Positions 16,718 to 19,222 of a stretch of DNA of 50,920 bases are shown one piece after another (positions within the stretch are counted from its first letter, which is position 1; each line of letters begins with the position of its first letter). The DNA is taken from NCBI GenBank assembly GCA_025060135.1, contig JANXCY010000015.1:1-50920 (forward strand), in the 5' to 3' direction. Both the position numbers and the translations under genes were made by a program. This DNA is from Anaerolineae bacterium (GTDB lineage Bacteria; Chloroflexota; Anaerolineae; B4-G1; DUEL01). The notes under the pieces were generated by a model. That model saw nothing but the letters and a program-made list of their open reading frames with translations. It was not told where the DNA came from and ran no database searches.

Positions 16718-19024
16718 TTAGCCTGTCCCATCGTCCTCTTCCCCTTCCAATGCGATTCCCCACAGTCGCACAGTCCTATCATACGCTCCGGAAGCCAGTA
16801 TTTGCCCATCTGGGGAAAAGGTCACGCTTCCTATCCAATTCATGTGGCCTTCCAGGGTACGCAGCACCGATTGGTCAGTCACTTGCCATAACCGCACTGT
16901 CCTGTCCGAAGACCCTGACGCCAACATTGTTGGGTGGCTGGGGGAAAAAGCCACGCTCAGCACGGCGCCGTTATGTCCCTCCAATTCTCTCAGGAGCGTG
17001 TCATCCGAGGCGCTCCAAATTCGGATTGTACCATCCGATGAACCGGAAGCCAGAACGGCTCCATCAGAAGAGAAGGCAACGCTTTCTACTTCCCCTTTGT
17101 GCTCCAACCTCCGCAAGAACTGGCCATTGGCCACTTGCCAGAGGCGTACCGTTTTATCAGCCGACCCGGAAGCCAAGACCTTTCCATCAGGTGAGAATGC
17201 AACGCTCCTGATCGCACCTTTGTGCCCTTCCAAGACGCGCATAAGCACTCTATCCTGGATTCGCCATAAGCGTACAGTACTATCGGAAGAGCCAGAGGCC
17301 AGGATCCCCCCGGTGGGTGAAAGAGCCACGCTCTTGACCGCACTGGAGTGTCCGGTTAGCGTACACAGAGGCCATCCCTCGGGAATTCGCCATAGCCGTA
17401 TAGTGCCGTCCACTGATCCCGAAGCCAGTATTCGTCCATCCGGAGAGAATGCTACGCTCTCTACCCCACCGTTATGTCCTGGCAGGATGCAGAAAGGGAG
17501 ACTGTTCTCAAACCGCCACAGATAGATTCTTGCGTCTAAAGTTCCTACAGCCAGTATTTCTCCATTCGGAGAGAAAGCCACGGTTCTAACCAAATCTGGA
17601 TACTGTAAGCAATACAGAAGTCGTATATGTGCAACCGTATGGGGTGAAATGGACGCTCGCTCTTTCTGAATCGCTGCTGGCGCCTCCAGGTATGGTTTCA
17701 GCCCCTTTGAAACCTCTCCTTTTACTGGCTGGAAGGCTTTTCCTTCTTGGGGTACTTGTGTCTCCTGTATCCCTCCATCCGGTTTGACCCTCTGTTCCTC
17801 TTGTATGCGCTTCTTGATTTCTTCGGGTTGAGGTTTCTTTTCATCTTGCTCATATATCCGTTCCGGCACTTCCTCCCGGGGTGCTTTCGCTTCCTGTAAA
17901 TTGAACAGTATTCCCTCAGGAGCACGCATATACAGTACAGGTATTCCCCATTCCAACGTACAGGGCACTGCCAGGCTGACCGCCTTACGCGCTTCGGCGA
18001 TAGCGGCATCTACGGGCAAGCCATCGGCTAAAGCCTCGTAGAAAGCACGAGCGAACTCTACGGCTGCCTGGTCGGTAATCTCAAACTGCATCGCCAGTAC
18101 AGCGGGGATACCTCGTCGCACCAATATAGCAGCAGTACTGGAGAAGATGTCCCGTTCACTTCCCCGTGCTCCTTCACACGCATTCAACAGCACCAAGCGC
18201 ATAGAAAAGTGGTCCGCGAGCAGACGAGCCAGTTCTGTTGCCCCCAGGGGATAGGTCTCTCCCTTTTCATTACTCAAGGCAATGATGCCTTCATCTCGCT
18301 GACGGTCAAAGCGACCGTGTCCAATGAAGTGAAAGACGTGCCAAGAACCACGGCGCATCGCCTGCTGCAGATCGCGCCAGGTCTGCCCCTCCAGCCACGT
18401 CAGGCGCACCAAACCGCGCGCTTGGAGGCCTTTAAGGGCTTCTTCCATCCGCTCTTTTTCTCGTTTCACATCCAGCGGGTCTTGATCCCGAGGGCTGGCG
18501 ACCATCCCCAAGATGCGCAGGGGAGGGGTTACCATCAGCGGTTGGATAGGCTGGGGCAATTCTATGTAACGGATAACAGGGGTATTGCGGGAAAGGCAAA
18601 GGTATTCGCCCGATCGCGGATCGTACAGGAACTCCCAGGGAAGTACAGTCAGTTCCGGCGCATTGATACGCAGTTTCAGCCGCAACCCTTTGCCCTGTCG
18701 GGTCGCCTCACGCAGGCTCACATCATAGCGGCTGCGCACCTCTCCGCAAAATAGCGCGTTAAACAGGCCCTGACCAAAATCCTGCACGGACTGCTCTTCC
18801 GGAGAGAGCATCTTGCGGCGCGGCCCACCGGAGCGCAGAAGTGCAATTTGCAGATCTTTCAAGCGGCTCTGAAGTGCCAGTTCGTCGTAAGGAAAACGCA
18901 AGGTTTCACGCGCTTCCCCGGCTGGGCAACGAACGGTAATGGGATACTCGCGGCCCTGGCCAGGACCGATTTCCAGATCAAAGTCCAGATACTTCAGACA
19001 ACTGGCAACAGCGTTGTCCTGCAT
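16718..19024 (-). CDS. CHAT-domain (caspase-like) protease fused to 7 WD40 repeats
   Basis: N-terminal PWEFLYD region. His/Cys dyad HFIGHG ... [10 protein letters not shown] charged low-complexity linker. Seven [25 protein letters not shown] blades. Visibly lower GC (~50-55%) than neighbours. Confidence 0.85.
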
Positions 19025-19084
19025 GGCGGCTACAAGTCTTGGTCTTCCAGCGAAAACCGTTCTTTCACGAACTGACGAGTGTGC

Positions 19085-19222
19085 TCAGCCAGGCACACCG
19101 ATGACCAGCCGGTCGATGTCGCTCTCCCGGCGGGCCCGGCTCCGGACCCGGGAGCCAAAGAGAATAATCCCGCAGGCACCCATTTCCCGCAGTTGGCGGA
19201 CGATTTCCTCCAGTTCGGTCAT
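19085..19222 (-). CDS. Truncated minimal nucleotidyltransferase (MNT/Pol-beta fold) ORF, 45 aa
   Basis: [45 protein letters not shown] matches the hGSxARGx(5)SDID-L-V signature. The ATG overlaps the atpG stop (ATGA). Full-length members are ~95-140 aa, so the C-terminal half is missing. Confidence 0.4.
   Translation of the reverse strand: MTELEEIVRQLREMGACGIILFGSRVRSRARRESDIDRLVIGVPG

What the first reader, a model, noticed from the sequence alone, without database searches (positions are those of the whole stretch)
16718..19222. Lower-GC CHAT (caspase-like)-WD40 gene inserted between atpG and atpD of the F1 ATP synthase operon, preceded by a truncated MNT-type nucleotidyltransferase ORF coupled to the atpG stop
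atpA, atpG, atpD and atpC are collinear on the minus strand, but a 2.3-kb gene lies between gamma and beta. It encodes an N-terminal CHAT protease with an intact His/Cys dyad (HFIGHG ... LNACEG), a charged linker, and a 7-bladed WD40 domain. Its base composition is visibly AT-richer than the flanking atp genes. Stretches are near 50% GC against roughly 63-66% elsewhere, which argues for horizontal acquisition. Immediately upstream, a 45-codon ORF carries an intact N-terminal minimal-nucleotidyltransferase signature (LFGSRVRSRARRESDIDRLVI), and its ATG overlaps the atpG TGA. CHAT-WD40 proteins are STAND/apoptosis-like or defence-associated proteases. Interrupting a stoichiometric core-bioenergetic operon with such a gene is unusual. 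It raises the questions of how atpD/atpC are expressed (an internal promoter?) and whether the protease is co-regulated with ATP synthase.
Basis: partly seen in the sequence, partly recalled or inferred. Interest (0 to 1): 0.75.

Follow-up and report, generated by a model that had tools for sequence, protein, structure and literature searches.

The report
Foreign protease gene inside ATP-synthase operon
A recently acquired caspase-like protease fused to a WD40 sensor domain sits between the gamma and beta subunit genes of a hot-spring bacterium's ATP synthase, at a spot where its relatives hold varying toxin-antitoxin cassettes.

Summary
A 768-aa CHAT-linker-WD40 gene (16718-19024, minus strand) lies between atpG and atpD. 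Its His236/Cys283 dyad is intact and its GC3 is 0.55 against 0.72-0.83 for its neighbours. None of about 15 Thermoflexales-like relatives carries it there, and none of 84 homologue loci lies near atp genes.

In this clade the atpG-atpD spacer is a hotspot for co-oriented, tightly packed toxin-antitoxin cassettes. The 45-codon ORF is the 5' relic of an MNT-HEPN module, and the last ~20 HEPN codons also survive (about 19096-19033). The foreign insert of about 2.37 kb sits exactly between the HEPN stop and the atpD start.

The CHAT module belongs to a family 63-77% identical across phyla, fused to interchangeable C-termini: WD40, TPR, FGE-sulfatase or TIR. It has no NTPase domain, so it is not a STAND protein. 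The likely function is a stand-alone sensor-protease of the conflict or defence type, expressed by read-through. That function is inferred, not shown.

Caveat: a short-read MAG of the same organism confirms both flanks but breaks at 19061 and 17510, so only this assembly bridges the CHAT part.

The parts
20118..21770 (-). atpA (F1 alpha subunit)
   Evidence: Pfam ATP-synt_ab, ATP-synt_ab_N and ATP-synt_ab_C. 91-95% identical to close relatives.
19219..20130 (-). atpG (F1 gamma subunit). Its TGA overlaps the ATG of the MNT relic (ATGA).
   Evidence: PF00231, 294 bits. The sequence shows the overlap. The exact protein is on record in MAG GCA_033581355.1.
19085..19222 (-). 45-codon ORF, the 5' relic of an MNT-type nucleotidyltransferase antitoxin. 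Homology to intact MNT covers codons 1-41 (19222-19100). The last 4 codons and the stop are out-of-frame junction sequence.
   Evidence: PF01909 at 29.1 bits, profile positions 3-40 of 93. 78% aa identity to the intact L007 MNT. DNA homology to relatives stops at 19101.
19033..19096 (-). 3' relic of the HEPN toxin gene: the last ~20 codons plus the TAG stop, in a different frame from the MNT relic. About 0.6 kb of MNT-HEPN has been deleted between the two relics.
   Evidence: Frame-2 peptide LAEHTRQFVKERFSLEDQDL* against L007 LAEQTLRFVKERFP* and L004 LAEQTLQFVKQRFP. DNA identity 78-79% over 41-58 nt.
16668..19032 (-). Window-specific foreign insert of about 2.37 kb: 8 nt of leader, the CHAT-WD40 gene, and about 50 nt of trailer. 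It lies exactly between the HEPN stop and the atpD start.
   Evidence: blastn homology to relatives ends at 19101 and resumes at 16667. The HEPN relic extends homology to about 19033. GC is 0.556 against 0.640 for the atp genes. No target-site duplication or terminal inverted repeat was found.
17894..19024 (-). CHAT protease module (aa 1-377) with catalytic His236 (18319-18317) and Cys283 (18178-18176).
   Evidence: PF12770 at 105.8 bits. The dyad is invariant in 45 sequences. AF2 model pLDDT 86.5. Foldseek matches SAVED-CHAT 8tl0 at E=1.6e-13, plus Csx29, separase and DdvA.
17630..17893 (-). Charged, Pro/Glu/Lys/Gln-rich linker (aa 378-465), the lowest-GC part of the gene.
   Evidence: 38% charged residues. 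pLDDT below 50 in the full-length model. GC 0.515 and GC3 0.466.
16718..17629 (-). WD40 domain (aa 466-768) with seven repeats, plus the TAA stop.
   Evidence: PF00400 matches 7 stretches at 271.8 bits. Seven blades are anchored at aa 479-731, with mean blade identity 41%. DNA repeat period is about 126 nt at 60-73% identity.
16665..16717 (-). 53-nt spacer with the strong Shine-Dalgarno GGAGGAGG in front of the atpD ATG. It has no terminator-like or promoter-like site.
   Evidence: Sequence and promoter/terminator scan.
15267..16664 (-). atpD (F1 beta subunit), starting at the ATG at 16664.
   Evidence: Pfam. 96-98% identical to close relatives from residue 1.
14693..15121 (-). atpC (F1 epsilon subunit)
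   Evidence: PF02823.
17511..19060 (.). Segment bridged only in this assembly. MAG GCA_033581355.1 contig 61 ends at 19061 and contig 60 starts at 17510.
   Evidence: blastn of L165/L166 and L167 against the window, 99.99-100% identity.
22468..22496 (-). Perfect sigma-70-type consensus (TTGACA, 17 nt, TATAAT) upstream of the Rrf2 gene that precedes atpA. It is a candidate promoter for the whole co-oriented run.
   Evidence: 12 of 12 match. Rrf2 is PF02082 at 121 bits. It is a consensus match only.

Best explanation
In Thermoflexales-like Chloroflexota the F1 genes atpA-G-D-C form a stand-alone cluster. Its atpG-atpD spacer is a hotspot flanked by core genes, and it collects co-oriented, tightly packed selfish or conflict cassettes.

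The inferred sequence of events:
1. The ancestral occupant was an MNT-HEPN toxin-antitoxin module whose ATG overlapped the atpG stop.
2. In this genome the module was disabled by an internal deletion of about 0.6 kb. MNT codons 1-41 and the last ~20 HEPN codons remain.
3. A segment of about 2.37 kb from a lower-GC donor, carrying one gene, was placed between the HEPN stop and the atpD start.

The inserted gene encodes a CHAT (caspase-fold) cysteine protease, a disordered charged linker and a seven-repeat WD40 domain. The CHAT module belongs to a horizontally mobile family in which a conserved module of about 375 aa is fused to interchangeable binding or effector domains.

Proposed mechanism (inferred):
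- The gene has no evident promoter or terminator, so it is transcribed by read-through of the atp transcript, and atpD and atpC are reached by continued read-through.
- The WD40 propeller binds a protein ligand, either invader-derived or a damage signal.
- Ligand binding relieves autoinhibition or drives oligomerisation of the CHAT domain, which then cleaves cellular targets and causes growth arrest or death. This is a single-polypeptide sensor-protease that needs no NTPase.

Shown: the anatomy, the foreign composition, the lineage specificity, the hotspot, the fold and the dyad. Inferred: expression by read-through, the sensor role of WD40, and a defence or abortive-infection outcome.
For: Hotspot:
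- atpG-to-atpD gaps are 402-2395 nt in L001, L003, L004, L005, L007, L015 and L018, and 121 nt in L013. They are 25-40 nt in L008-L012. The median is 14 nt in 62 distant loci.
- The gap contents are co-oriented cassettes: MNT+HEPN, UPF0175+DUF3368, Phd-like+PIN and DUF433+DUF5615, with Pfam support.
- The same cassettes recur in different combinations among relatives.

MNT-HEPN relic:
- Shown: - L003 has a comparable deletion starting at the same MNT codon 41.
- In L007 a 26-nt duplicate of the atpG 3' end precedes MNT, so MNT originally abutted atpG.

Foreign origin:
- GC3 is 0.554 against 0.72-0.83.
- The gene-minus-flank GC difference is -0.087, z = -3.0, whereas in 63 other hosts the gene tracks host GC (r = 0.75).
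- It is absent from all relatives, and none of the 84 homologue loci is near atp genes.

Protease:
- Pfam CHAT, invariant His236 and Cys283, a confident model, and Foldseek hits to SAVED-CHAT, Csx29, separase and DdvA.

Modular conflict-type family:
- 2138 hits, with the top 120 at 63-77% identity over 97-100% of the module. Source labels range from Thermoflexales to Aminicenantes, Gammaproteobacteria and Ca. Methanoperedens.
- C-termini include FGE-sulfatase, WD40, TIR+AAA and TPR.
- A Trypco1 adaptor gene lies upstream in 11 of 84 loci. That domain was described in conflict systems (PMC7159879).
- CHAT and TIR domains occur in DGR-diversified sensors (PMC10907252).
- CHAT proteases fused to WD40, TPR or LRR repeats are proposed to couple ligand recognition to gasdermin cleavage (10.1101/2021.06.07.447441).

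Read-through:
- The spacers are 8, about 60 and 53 nt, with no terminator-like or promoter-like site in them.
- Homology to relatives resumes only 3-10 nt before the atpD ATG, so there is no conserved atpD promoter.
- All Pfam-supported cassette ORFs in relatives are co-oriented with atp.
Against: - There are no expression data. The promoter and terminator scans are consensus-based, and Chloroflexota signals may differ.
- The CHAT-WD40 start has no obvious Shine-Dalgarno sequence, so translation may be weak or absent.
- No substrate or partner gene is adjacent. No gasdermin, Trypco1, cas or CBASS gene is present.
- PADLOC gives only partial domain hits, so a defence role rests on analogy.
- The 1.55-kb CHAT-bearing segment is bridged only in this assembly.
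- The full-length model does not confidently close the propeller.
- No integration signature such as a target-site duplication, inverted repeats or a recombinase was found, so the insertion mechanism is unknown.
Confidence: 0.6

Rival explanations
1. Assembly chimera. The CHAT-linker-blade 1 segment was joined here wrongly, for example from a paralogous CHAT-WD40 gene or a co-occurring strain. The real locus then has a different or shorter sequence between the HEPN relic and the WD40 fragment.
For: MAG GCA_033581355.1 and a Logan assembly of SRR15826899 both end at window 19061, and the MAG's next contig starts at 17510. The family can be multi-copy: two paralogues occur on single contigs in L088/L097 and L093/L098.
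Against: - The join gives one uninterrupted 768-aa ORF with a normal start, aligned from residue 1 with homologues.
- All three parts have similarly low GC3 of 0.47-0.59.
- WD40 blades 2-7 directly upstream of atpD are independently confirmed, and a WD40 fragment without an N-terminal domain would make little sense.
- Homologues L085 and P0003 have the same CHAT-linker-WD40 architecture.
- No repeat of 15 nt or more occurs at the break points within the window.
Confidence: 0.1
2. Non-functional passenger. The gene arrived recently and is not expressed or not useful. It persists only because imprecise deletion would damage atpG or atpD.
For: There is no Shine-Dalgarno sequence before its ATG and no partner or substrate gene. 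Its neighbours in the same spacer, MNT and HEPN, have visibly decayed here and in L003, L005 and L013.
Against: The 2.3-kb ORF is intact. Every invariant residue of the family is retained, including the dyad, and all seven WD40 repeats are present. A gene drifting neutrally in a GC-rich genome would soon acquire stops or frameshifts.
Confidence: 0.15
3. HetF-like developmental or cell-division protease of a filamentous bacterium, a housekeeping role unrelated to conflict.
For: Thermoflexus-type organisms are filamentous (established knowledge). The best NCBIfam hit is cell-division protein HetF at E = 5e-29.
Against: - The HetF score of 101 bits is far below the equivalog cut-off of 1200, and the match covers only the CHAT core.
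- The gene is absent from all close relatives, so it cannot be a core developmental factor.
- Its composition is foreign.
- The family is fused to TIR and FGE-sulfatase domains.
Confidence: 0.08
4. Functional link to ATP synthase. The protease is positioned to be co-regulated with F1 and acts on ATP synthase subunits or their assembly.
For: It is co-oriented and tightly packed inside the F1 cluster.
Against: None of the 84 homologue loci is near atp genes. Relatives fill the same spacer with unrelated TA cassettes or with nothing. The position is therefore explained by the hotspot and not by function.
Confidence: 0.04

Closest known systems
CHAT proteases fused to repeat sensors next to bacterial gasdermins (Johnson et al., bioRxiv 10.1101/2021.06.07.447441)
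   Same: A caspase-fold CHAT protease with a His/Cys dyad is fused in one polypeptide to WD40, TPR or LRR repeats. The authors propose that this couples ligand recognition directly to proteolysis.
   Different: There is no gasdermin or any other candidate substrate gene next to it. Its neighbours are atpD and a TA relic, so the substrate is unknown.
SAVED-CHAT (PDB 8tl0) and Csx29 TPR-CHAT / Craspase (PDB 7zoq, 7y8t)
   Same: These are the best structural matches (Foldseek E = 1.6e-13 and 7.7e-12). The catalytic architecture is the same, and the protease is switched on by a sensor domain.
   Different: There is no SAVED domain and no cyclic-oligonucleotide or CRISPR context. Sequence identity is only 10-22%. 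The sensor here is a WD40 domain on a long disordered linker.
Effector/sensor fusions of prokaryotic conflict systems (Kaur et al. 2020, PMC7159879; Doré et al. 2024, PMC10907252)
   Same: Caspase-like peptidases are combined with superstructure-forming repeats, FGS/CLec and TIR domains. A Trypco1 adaptor gene lies next to some family members (11 of 84 loci). The systems are enriched in multicellular and filamentous bacteria.
   Different: The window's gene stands alone. It has no MoxR, vWA, VMAP or STAND NTPase partner, no Trypco1 neighbour and no DGR.
MNT-HEPN (MntA/HepT, type VII) toxin-antitoxin modules
   Same: The 45-codon ORF keeps the GS-x10-DxD nucleotidyltransferase motif. Relatives carry full MNT+HEPN pairs at the same site.
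   Different: Only MNT codons 1-41 and the last ~20 HEPN codons remain in the window, in different frames. It is a relic and not a working module.
Core-gene-flanked defence/TA hotspots (defence islands) in bacterial pan-genomes (own knowledge, e.g. E. coli and Pseudomonas hotspot surveys)
   Same: Conserved flanking core genes enclose strain-variable cargo made of TA and defence-type genes, shuffled among relatives.
   Different: The hotspot lies inside an essential, stoichiometric operon, between two cistrons. All cargo is co-oriented and packed without evident promoters or terminators. No integrase or tRNA is involved.

Membership tests
CHAT / clan CD caspase-fold peptidase (PF12770) | Profile match above the curated cut-off | tested here: met
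   105.8 bits against a cut-off of 24, aa 85-349.
CHAT / clan CD caspase-fold peptidase (PF12770) | Catalytic His (H-G) and Cys (N-x-C-E-G) dyad | tested here: met
   His236, Gly237, Asn281, Cys283 and Gly285 are invariant in 45 sequences.
CHAT / clan CD caspase-fold peptidase (PF12770) | Caspase/separase-type fold | tested here: met
   AF2 pLDDT 86.5. Foldseek probability 1.00 to 8tl0, 7zoq, 5fc2 and 8rot, with caspases at about 1e-4.
CHAT / clan CD caspase-fold peptidase (PF12770) | Proteolytic activity | not testable with these tools
   This needs biochemistry.
WD40 beta-propeller | Seven WD repeats | tested here: met
   PF00400 matches 7 stretches. Seven anchored blades.
WD40 beta-propeller | Closed seven-bladed ring | tested here: inconclusive
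   In the full-length AF2 model, blades 4-7 have pLDDT of about 76-83, while blades 1 and 3 are below 50 because the alignment is shallow.
STAND NTPase (NACHT / NB-ARC) receptors | Central P-loop NTPase domain between the effector and the repeats | tested here: not met
   No NTPase family appears in Pfam. There is no Walker A motif, and the region between CHAT and WD40 is an 88-aa charged linker.
MNT-HEPN type VII toxin-antitoxin | Complete minimal nucleotidyltransferase of about 95-135 aa | tested here: not met
   Only profile positions 3-40 of 93 are matched. Homology to the intact L007 MNT ends at codon 41.
MNT-HEPN type VII toxin-antitoxin | Adjacent cognate HEPN toxin gene | tested here: not met
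   Only the last ~20 codons remain in the window, and there is no other HEPN in the window. The feature is met in relatives L007, L015 and L004 (PF05168 at 103-112 bits in L007 and L015; L004 HEPN 93% identical to L007's).
Gasdermin-protease defence system | Protease gene adjacent to a gasdermin gene | tested here: not met
   The immediate neighbours are atpD and the MNT/HEPN relic. The other large ORFs in the window are housekeeping genes.
SAVED-CHAT (CBASS / type III CRISPR) | N-terminal SAVED sensor domain | tested here: not met
   The PADLOC SAVED_CHAT hit covers only the CHAT part, aa 199-371 against profile positions 118-272 of 498. There is no SAVED family in Pfam.
HetF cell-division protease | NCBIfam equivalog score at or above 1200 bits | tested here: not met
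   101.1 bits.
Core-gene-flanked variable hotspot | Conserved flanks with variable cargo among close relatives | tested here: met
   The atpA-G-D-C-mreB block is conserved. Spacers range from 25 to 2395 nt, with different TA cassette sets.
Trypco1-associated conflict systems | Neighbouring Trypco1 or Trypco2 adaptor gene | tested here: not met
   It is present upstream of 11 of 84 homologues (PF19493 at 90.9 bits). It is absent in the window.

The most novel reading that the evidence does not exclude
The spacer inside the essential F1 operon is a genuine promoterless 'safe harbour'. Selfish and immune cassettes there are expressed by read-through and are protected from loss by their essential flanks. 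The CHAT-WD40 gene represents a widespread, NTPase-independent, single-polypeptide sensor-protease immune receptor: a conserved CHAT cassette with swappable WD40, TPR, FGE-sulfatase or TIR modules, exchanged between bacterial and archaeal phyla.
Probability: 0.3. Interest if true: 0.7.

Novelty: new variant of a known kind. Interest (0 to 1): 0.45.

Why it matters
If the reading holds, it matters in two ways.

1. It would show that a stoichiometric, essential operon can serve as a long-lived landing pad for toxin-antitoxin and immune-type genes. The cassettes borrow its transcription and are shielded from deletion by essential flanks. That arrangement differs from the classical integrase- or tRNA-associated defence islands. 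It also raises the question of how atpD and atpC dosage is maintained across inserts of 0.4-2.4 kb.

2. It points to a large, uncharacterised CHAT family, more than 2000 hits at 63-77% identity across phyla, in which one conserved protease module is recombined with many sensor or effector domains. These would be tractable candidates for minimal, apoptosome-free caspase-type immune receptors.

If the reading is wrong, the locus is simply a recent horizontally transferred passenger gene.

Tried and rejected
- **Rfam scan of the whole window:** no RNA family.
- **Integration signatures:** no target-site duplication or inverted repeat at the insert boundaries; only 6-mers are shared.
- **Tandem repeats:** none in 11.5-19.4 kb.
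- **Promoter and terminator scan:** nothing in the spacers. The terminator-like hairpin at 16966-16950 lies inside a WD40 repeat, and the total count (10 against 5.5 ± 2.6 expected) is not significant.
- **Exact-protein look-up of CHAT-WD40:** not on record.
- **Metagenome scan for the same gene or arrangement:** the best hit is 77% identical, and none is near atp genes.
- **Conserved partner gene across 84 homologue loci:** none is universal.
- **Shared upstream leader among homologues:** none.
- **Plasmid and phage carriers:** the best hits are 44% and 40% identical.
- **Full-length structure prediction:** it did not resolve the propeller.
- **Repeats within the window as the cause of the assembly breaks:** rejected.
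- **Strong AT skew at 12000-12450:** it is only the transmembrane N-terminus of an SPFH protein.
- **STAND, HetF, SAVED-CHAT and gasdermin-system membership:** each was tested and not met.
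Full report
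**1. Observation**

On the minus strand the window carries these genes in order:
- atpA (20118-21770)
- atpG (19219-20130)
- a 45-codon ORF (19085-19222) whose ATG overlaps the atpG TGA
- a 768-aa ORF (16718-19024)
- atpD (true ATG at 16664, ending at 15267)
- atpC (14693-15121)

Pfam confirms all four F1 subunits. It also confirms a CHAT domain (105.8 bits, aa 85-349), seven WD40 repeats, and an N-terminal fragment of a minimal nucleotidyltransferase in the small ORF. That fragment scores 29.1 bits on PF01909 against a cut-off of 21, but matches only profile positions 3-40 of 93.

The composition claim holds quantitatively:
- The gene has GC 0.551 and GC3 0.554. GC3 is 0.816 for atpG, 0.749 for atpD, and 0.72-0.83 for typical genes in the window.
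- The charged linker has the lowest GC.
- In 63 other genomes the homologous gene tracks its host's GC (r = 0.75; gene minus flank +0.011 ± 0.032). Here the difference is -0.087, or z = -3.0.

**2. Source organism and relatives**

A scan of species-representative genomes with atpG places the window in Thermoflexales-like Chloroflexota. The best atpG identity is 90%, and atpD is 96-98% identical. The block atpA-G-D-C-mreB is syntenic in all relatives. The F1 cluster stands alone, with different genes upstream of atpA in L001.

None of L001-L030 has any CHAT or WD40 match. None of the 84 loci that encode CHAT homologues has atp genes.

**3. The spacer is a hotspot**

Across 62 distant loci the atpG-atpD gap has a median of 14 nt (IQR -4.5 to 45). 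Among 13 measurable Thermoflexales-like loci:
- Five have gaps of 25-40 nt.
- Eight have gaps of 121-2395 nt.
- Two further contigs (L002, L006) end inside an insert.

The inserts are co-oriented, tightly packed toxin-antitoxin pairs:

| Locus | Spacer content |
|---|---|
| L007 | UPF0175+DUF3368, MNT+HEPN, Phd-like+PIN |
| L004 | Phd-like, DUF433+DUF5615, MNT+HEPN |
| L015 | MNT+HEPN |
| L001, L005, L013 | relics of such cassettes |

The same cassettes recur in different combinations, and the spacers have lower GC (0.48-0.61) than the atp genes (0.62-0.67).

**4. The NTase ORF is one end of a deleted MNT-HEPN module**

DNA homology to relatives runs from atpG through MNT codon 41 and stops at 19101. 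Immediately after, in another frame, the peptide LAEHTRQFVKERFSLEDQDL* matches the C-terminus of the relatives' HEPN proteins, at 78-79% DNA identity over 41-58 nt.

The window therefore keeps both ends of an MNT-HEPN module, with about 0.6 kb deleted between them. L003 has an in-frame MNT(1-41)::HEPN fusion that starts at the same codon and shares the ATGA overlap with atpG. In L007 a 26-nt duplicate of the atpG 3' end precedes MNT, which shows that MNT originally abutted atpG. No other HEPN or MNT is present in the window.

**5. The insert**

The CHAT-WD40 ATG (19024) lies 8 nt after the stop of the HEPN relic. Homology to relatives resumes 3-10 nt before the atpD ATG. The foreign DNA is thus about 19032-16668, roughly 2.37 kb: one gene with minimal flanks, placed where HEPN and atpD directly abut in L004.

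No target-site duplication, inverted repeat or recombinase was found. No terminator-like or promoter-like site lies in the spacers of 8, about 60 and 53 nt. atpD has a strong GGAGGAGG ribosome-binding site, whereas the CHAT-WD40 start has none. A perfect sigma-70 consensus lies upstream of the Rrf2 gene that precedes atpA. Read-through expression is the economical inference, but it is untested.

**6. The protein**

- *Dyad:* His236 and Cys283 are invariant in 45 homologues.
- *Fold:* The model of aa 1-385 is confident (pLDDT 86.5, pTM 0.87). It matches SAVED-CHAT (8tl0, E = 1.6e-13), Csx29 TPR-CHAT, separase and the DdvA anti-sigma factor, with caspases further down the list. A profile search of PDB sequences finds only 8tl0.
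- *Not a STAND protein:* There is no NTPase domain and no Walker A motif.
- *Linker and propeller:* The linker is disordered in the full-length model, and the propeller is only partly confident.
- *Known families tested and not met:* HetF scores 101 bits against a cut-off of 1200. PADLOC gives only partial domain hits.

**7. The family**

The 377-aa module finds 2138 proteins. The best 120 are 63-77% identical over 97-100% of the module. Their source labels range from Thermoflexales, Anaerolineae and Ktedonobacterales to Aminicenantes, Gammaproteobacteria and Ca. Methanoperedens.

Homology typically ends at residues 376-405. Beyond that point the C-termini differ:
- FGE-sulfatase (L095, L102)
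- WD40 (L085)
- TIR plus AAA (L110)
- TPR, Zn-ribbon and FHA (precomputed Pfam annotations of the hits)
- about 450 aa of unannotated sequence

Of the 70 full-length CHAT ORFs recovered from the loci, 17 carry WD40.

Homologues are solo genes in unrelated neighbourhoods. The only recurrent neighbour is a Trypco1 adaptor gene, found in 11 of 84 loci. Trypco1, caspase-like effectors, FGS and TIR are hallmarks of the conflict systems of multicellular prokaryotes (PMC7159879, PMC10907252). CHAT proteases fused to WD40, TPR or LRR repeats have been proposed to couple ligand sensing directly to cleavage (10.1101/2021.06.07.447441). No close plasmid or phage copy exists in the collections searched.

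**8. Assembly caveat**

The exact atpG and the 45-aa ORF are on record in MAG GCA_033581355.1 (contig 61) and in a Logan assembly of SRR15826899. Both contigs end at window 19061. The MAG's contig 60 starts at 17510 and carries WD40 blades 2-7, the spacer, atpD, atpC and mreB.

Both junctions with the atp genes are therefore independently confirmed at 99.99% identity or better. The 1550 bp that encode CHAT, the linker and blade 1 are bridged only in this window. Four observations argue for a correct join:
- The ORF is uninterrupted.
- GC3 is uniformly low across the three parts.
- Homologues have the same architecture.
- No local repeats occur at the break points.

The breaks most likely reflect paralogous CHAT copies or strain heterogeneity. 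Either would fit a mobile, recent element.

**9. Verdict**

The most likely account is a recent horizontal insertion of a stand-alone CHAT-WD40 sensor-protease into an operon-embedded hotspot for toxin-antitoxin and conflict cassettes, next to the relic of an MNT-HEPN module. The anatomy and evolutionary history are well supported. Expression by read-through and a defence-type function are inferences.

In novelty terms, the protein is a new member of a known kind, and the hotspot inside an essential operon is a new variant of a known kind. Interest is moderate.

Noticed in passing
L004 3004-3707 and L002 4875-5578 (atpA-atpG gap); L037 10829-11711, L038 10831-11675, L043 10829-11203 (atpG-atpD gap): Small retropepsin-like aspartyl protease genes are embedded, co-oriented, in atp operons of two Chloroflexota lineages. 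In L004 the protein matches PF13975 at 39.6 bits. In Thermoflexales it sits with a 95-aa partner between atpA and atpG. In four Dehalococcoidia genomes, one or two copies with a DTGA motif sit between atpG and atpD. Their recurrence in the atp operon is unexplained.
   Followed up: partly
L004 7901-8331; L018 2529-2985; L020 12582-14710: The atpD-atpC spacer is also variable. L004 holds a HicB+HicA pair. L018 has about 460 nt of Pro/Gly-rich sequence. L020 has a 2.1-kb insert with a 573-aa ORF.
   Followed up: partly
L007 940-965 and 1987-2012: A 26-nt direct repeat (92% identical) of the atpG 3' end brackets the UPF0175+DUF3368 cassette. This suggests insertion with duplication of the atpG end, or recombination within it.
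   Followed up: partly
window 19100-19101; L003 4724-4725: The window and L003 both have MNT-HEPN deletions that start at the same MNT codon (41/42, after DIDxLVI) but end at different HEPN positions. This could reflect a shared first deletion or a recombination-prone site.
   Followed up: no
window 22468-22496 (minus strand): A perfect 12 of 12 sigma-70 consensus (TTGACA, 17 nt, TATAAT) lies just upstream of an Rrf2-family regulator gene (21952-22446), which is co-oriented with and precedes atpA. Relatives have different genes upstream of atpA (PolA and a peptidase in L001).
   Followed up: partly
L088/L097 (contig Ga0315268_10001103) and L093/L098 (contig Ga0233423_10000294); L110 6001-8610; L095, L102: Some genomes carry two CHAT-cassette paralogues within about 20 kb. 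Family members include CHAT-TIR-AAA and CHAT-FGE-sulfatase fusions. The FGE-sulfatase/CLec fusions may be DGR targets, but this was not checked for a nearby reverse transcriptase.
   Followed up: no
L170 507-839; L081 2627-3153: Small TA-like genes (DUF433; PBECR2/DUF2283) lie immediately upstream of CHAT-cassette homologues in unrelated genomes. This echoes the TA company the cassette keeps in the window.
   Followed up: no
L061 10981-11658: A Brocadiaceae genome has a 225-aa ORF between atpG and atpD that looked to me, by eye, like a Bro-N/antirepressor protein. It is another independent interruption of the same junction.
   Followed up: no
window 12000-12450: The strong AT skew (up to 0.5) is explained by the Leu/Phe-rich transmembrane N-terminus of an SPFH/Band-7 protein (10993-12657, minus strand). 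It is trivial.
   Followed up: yes
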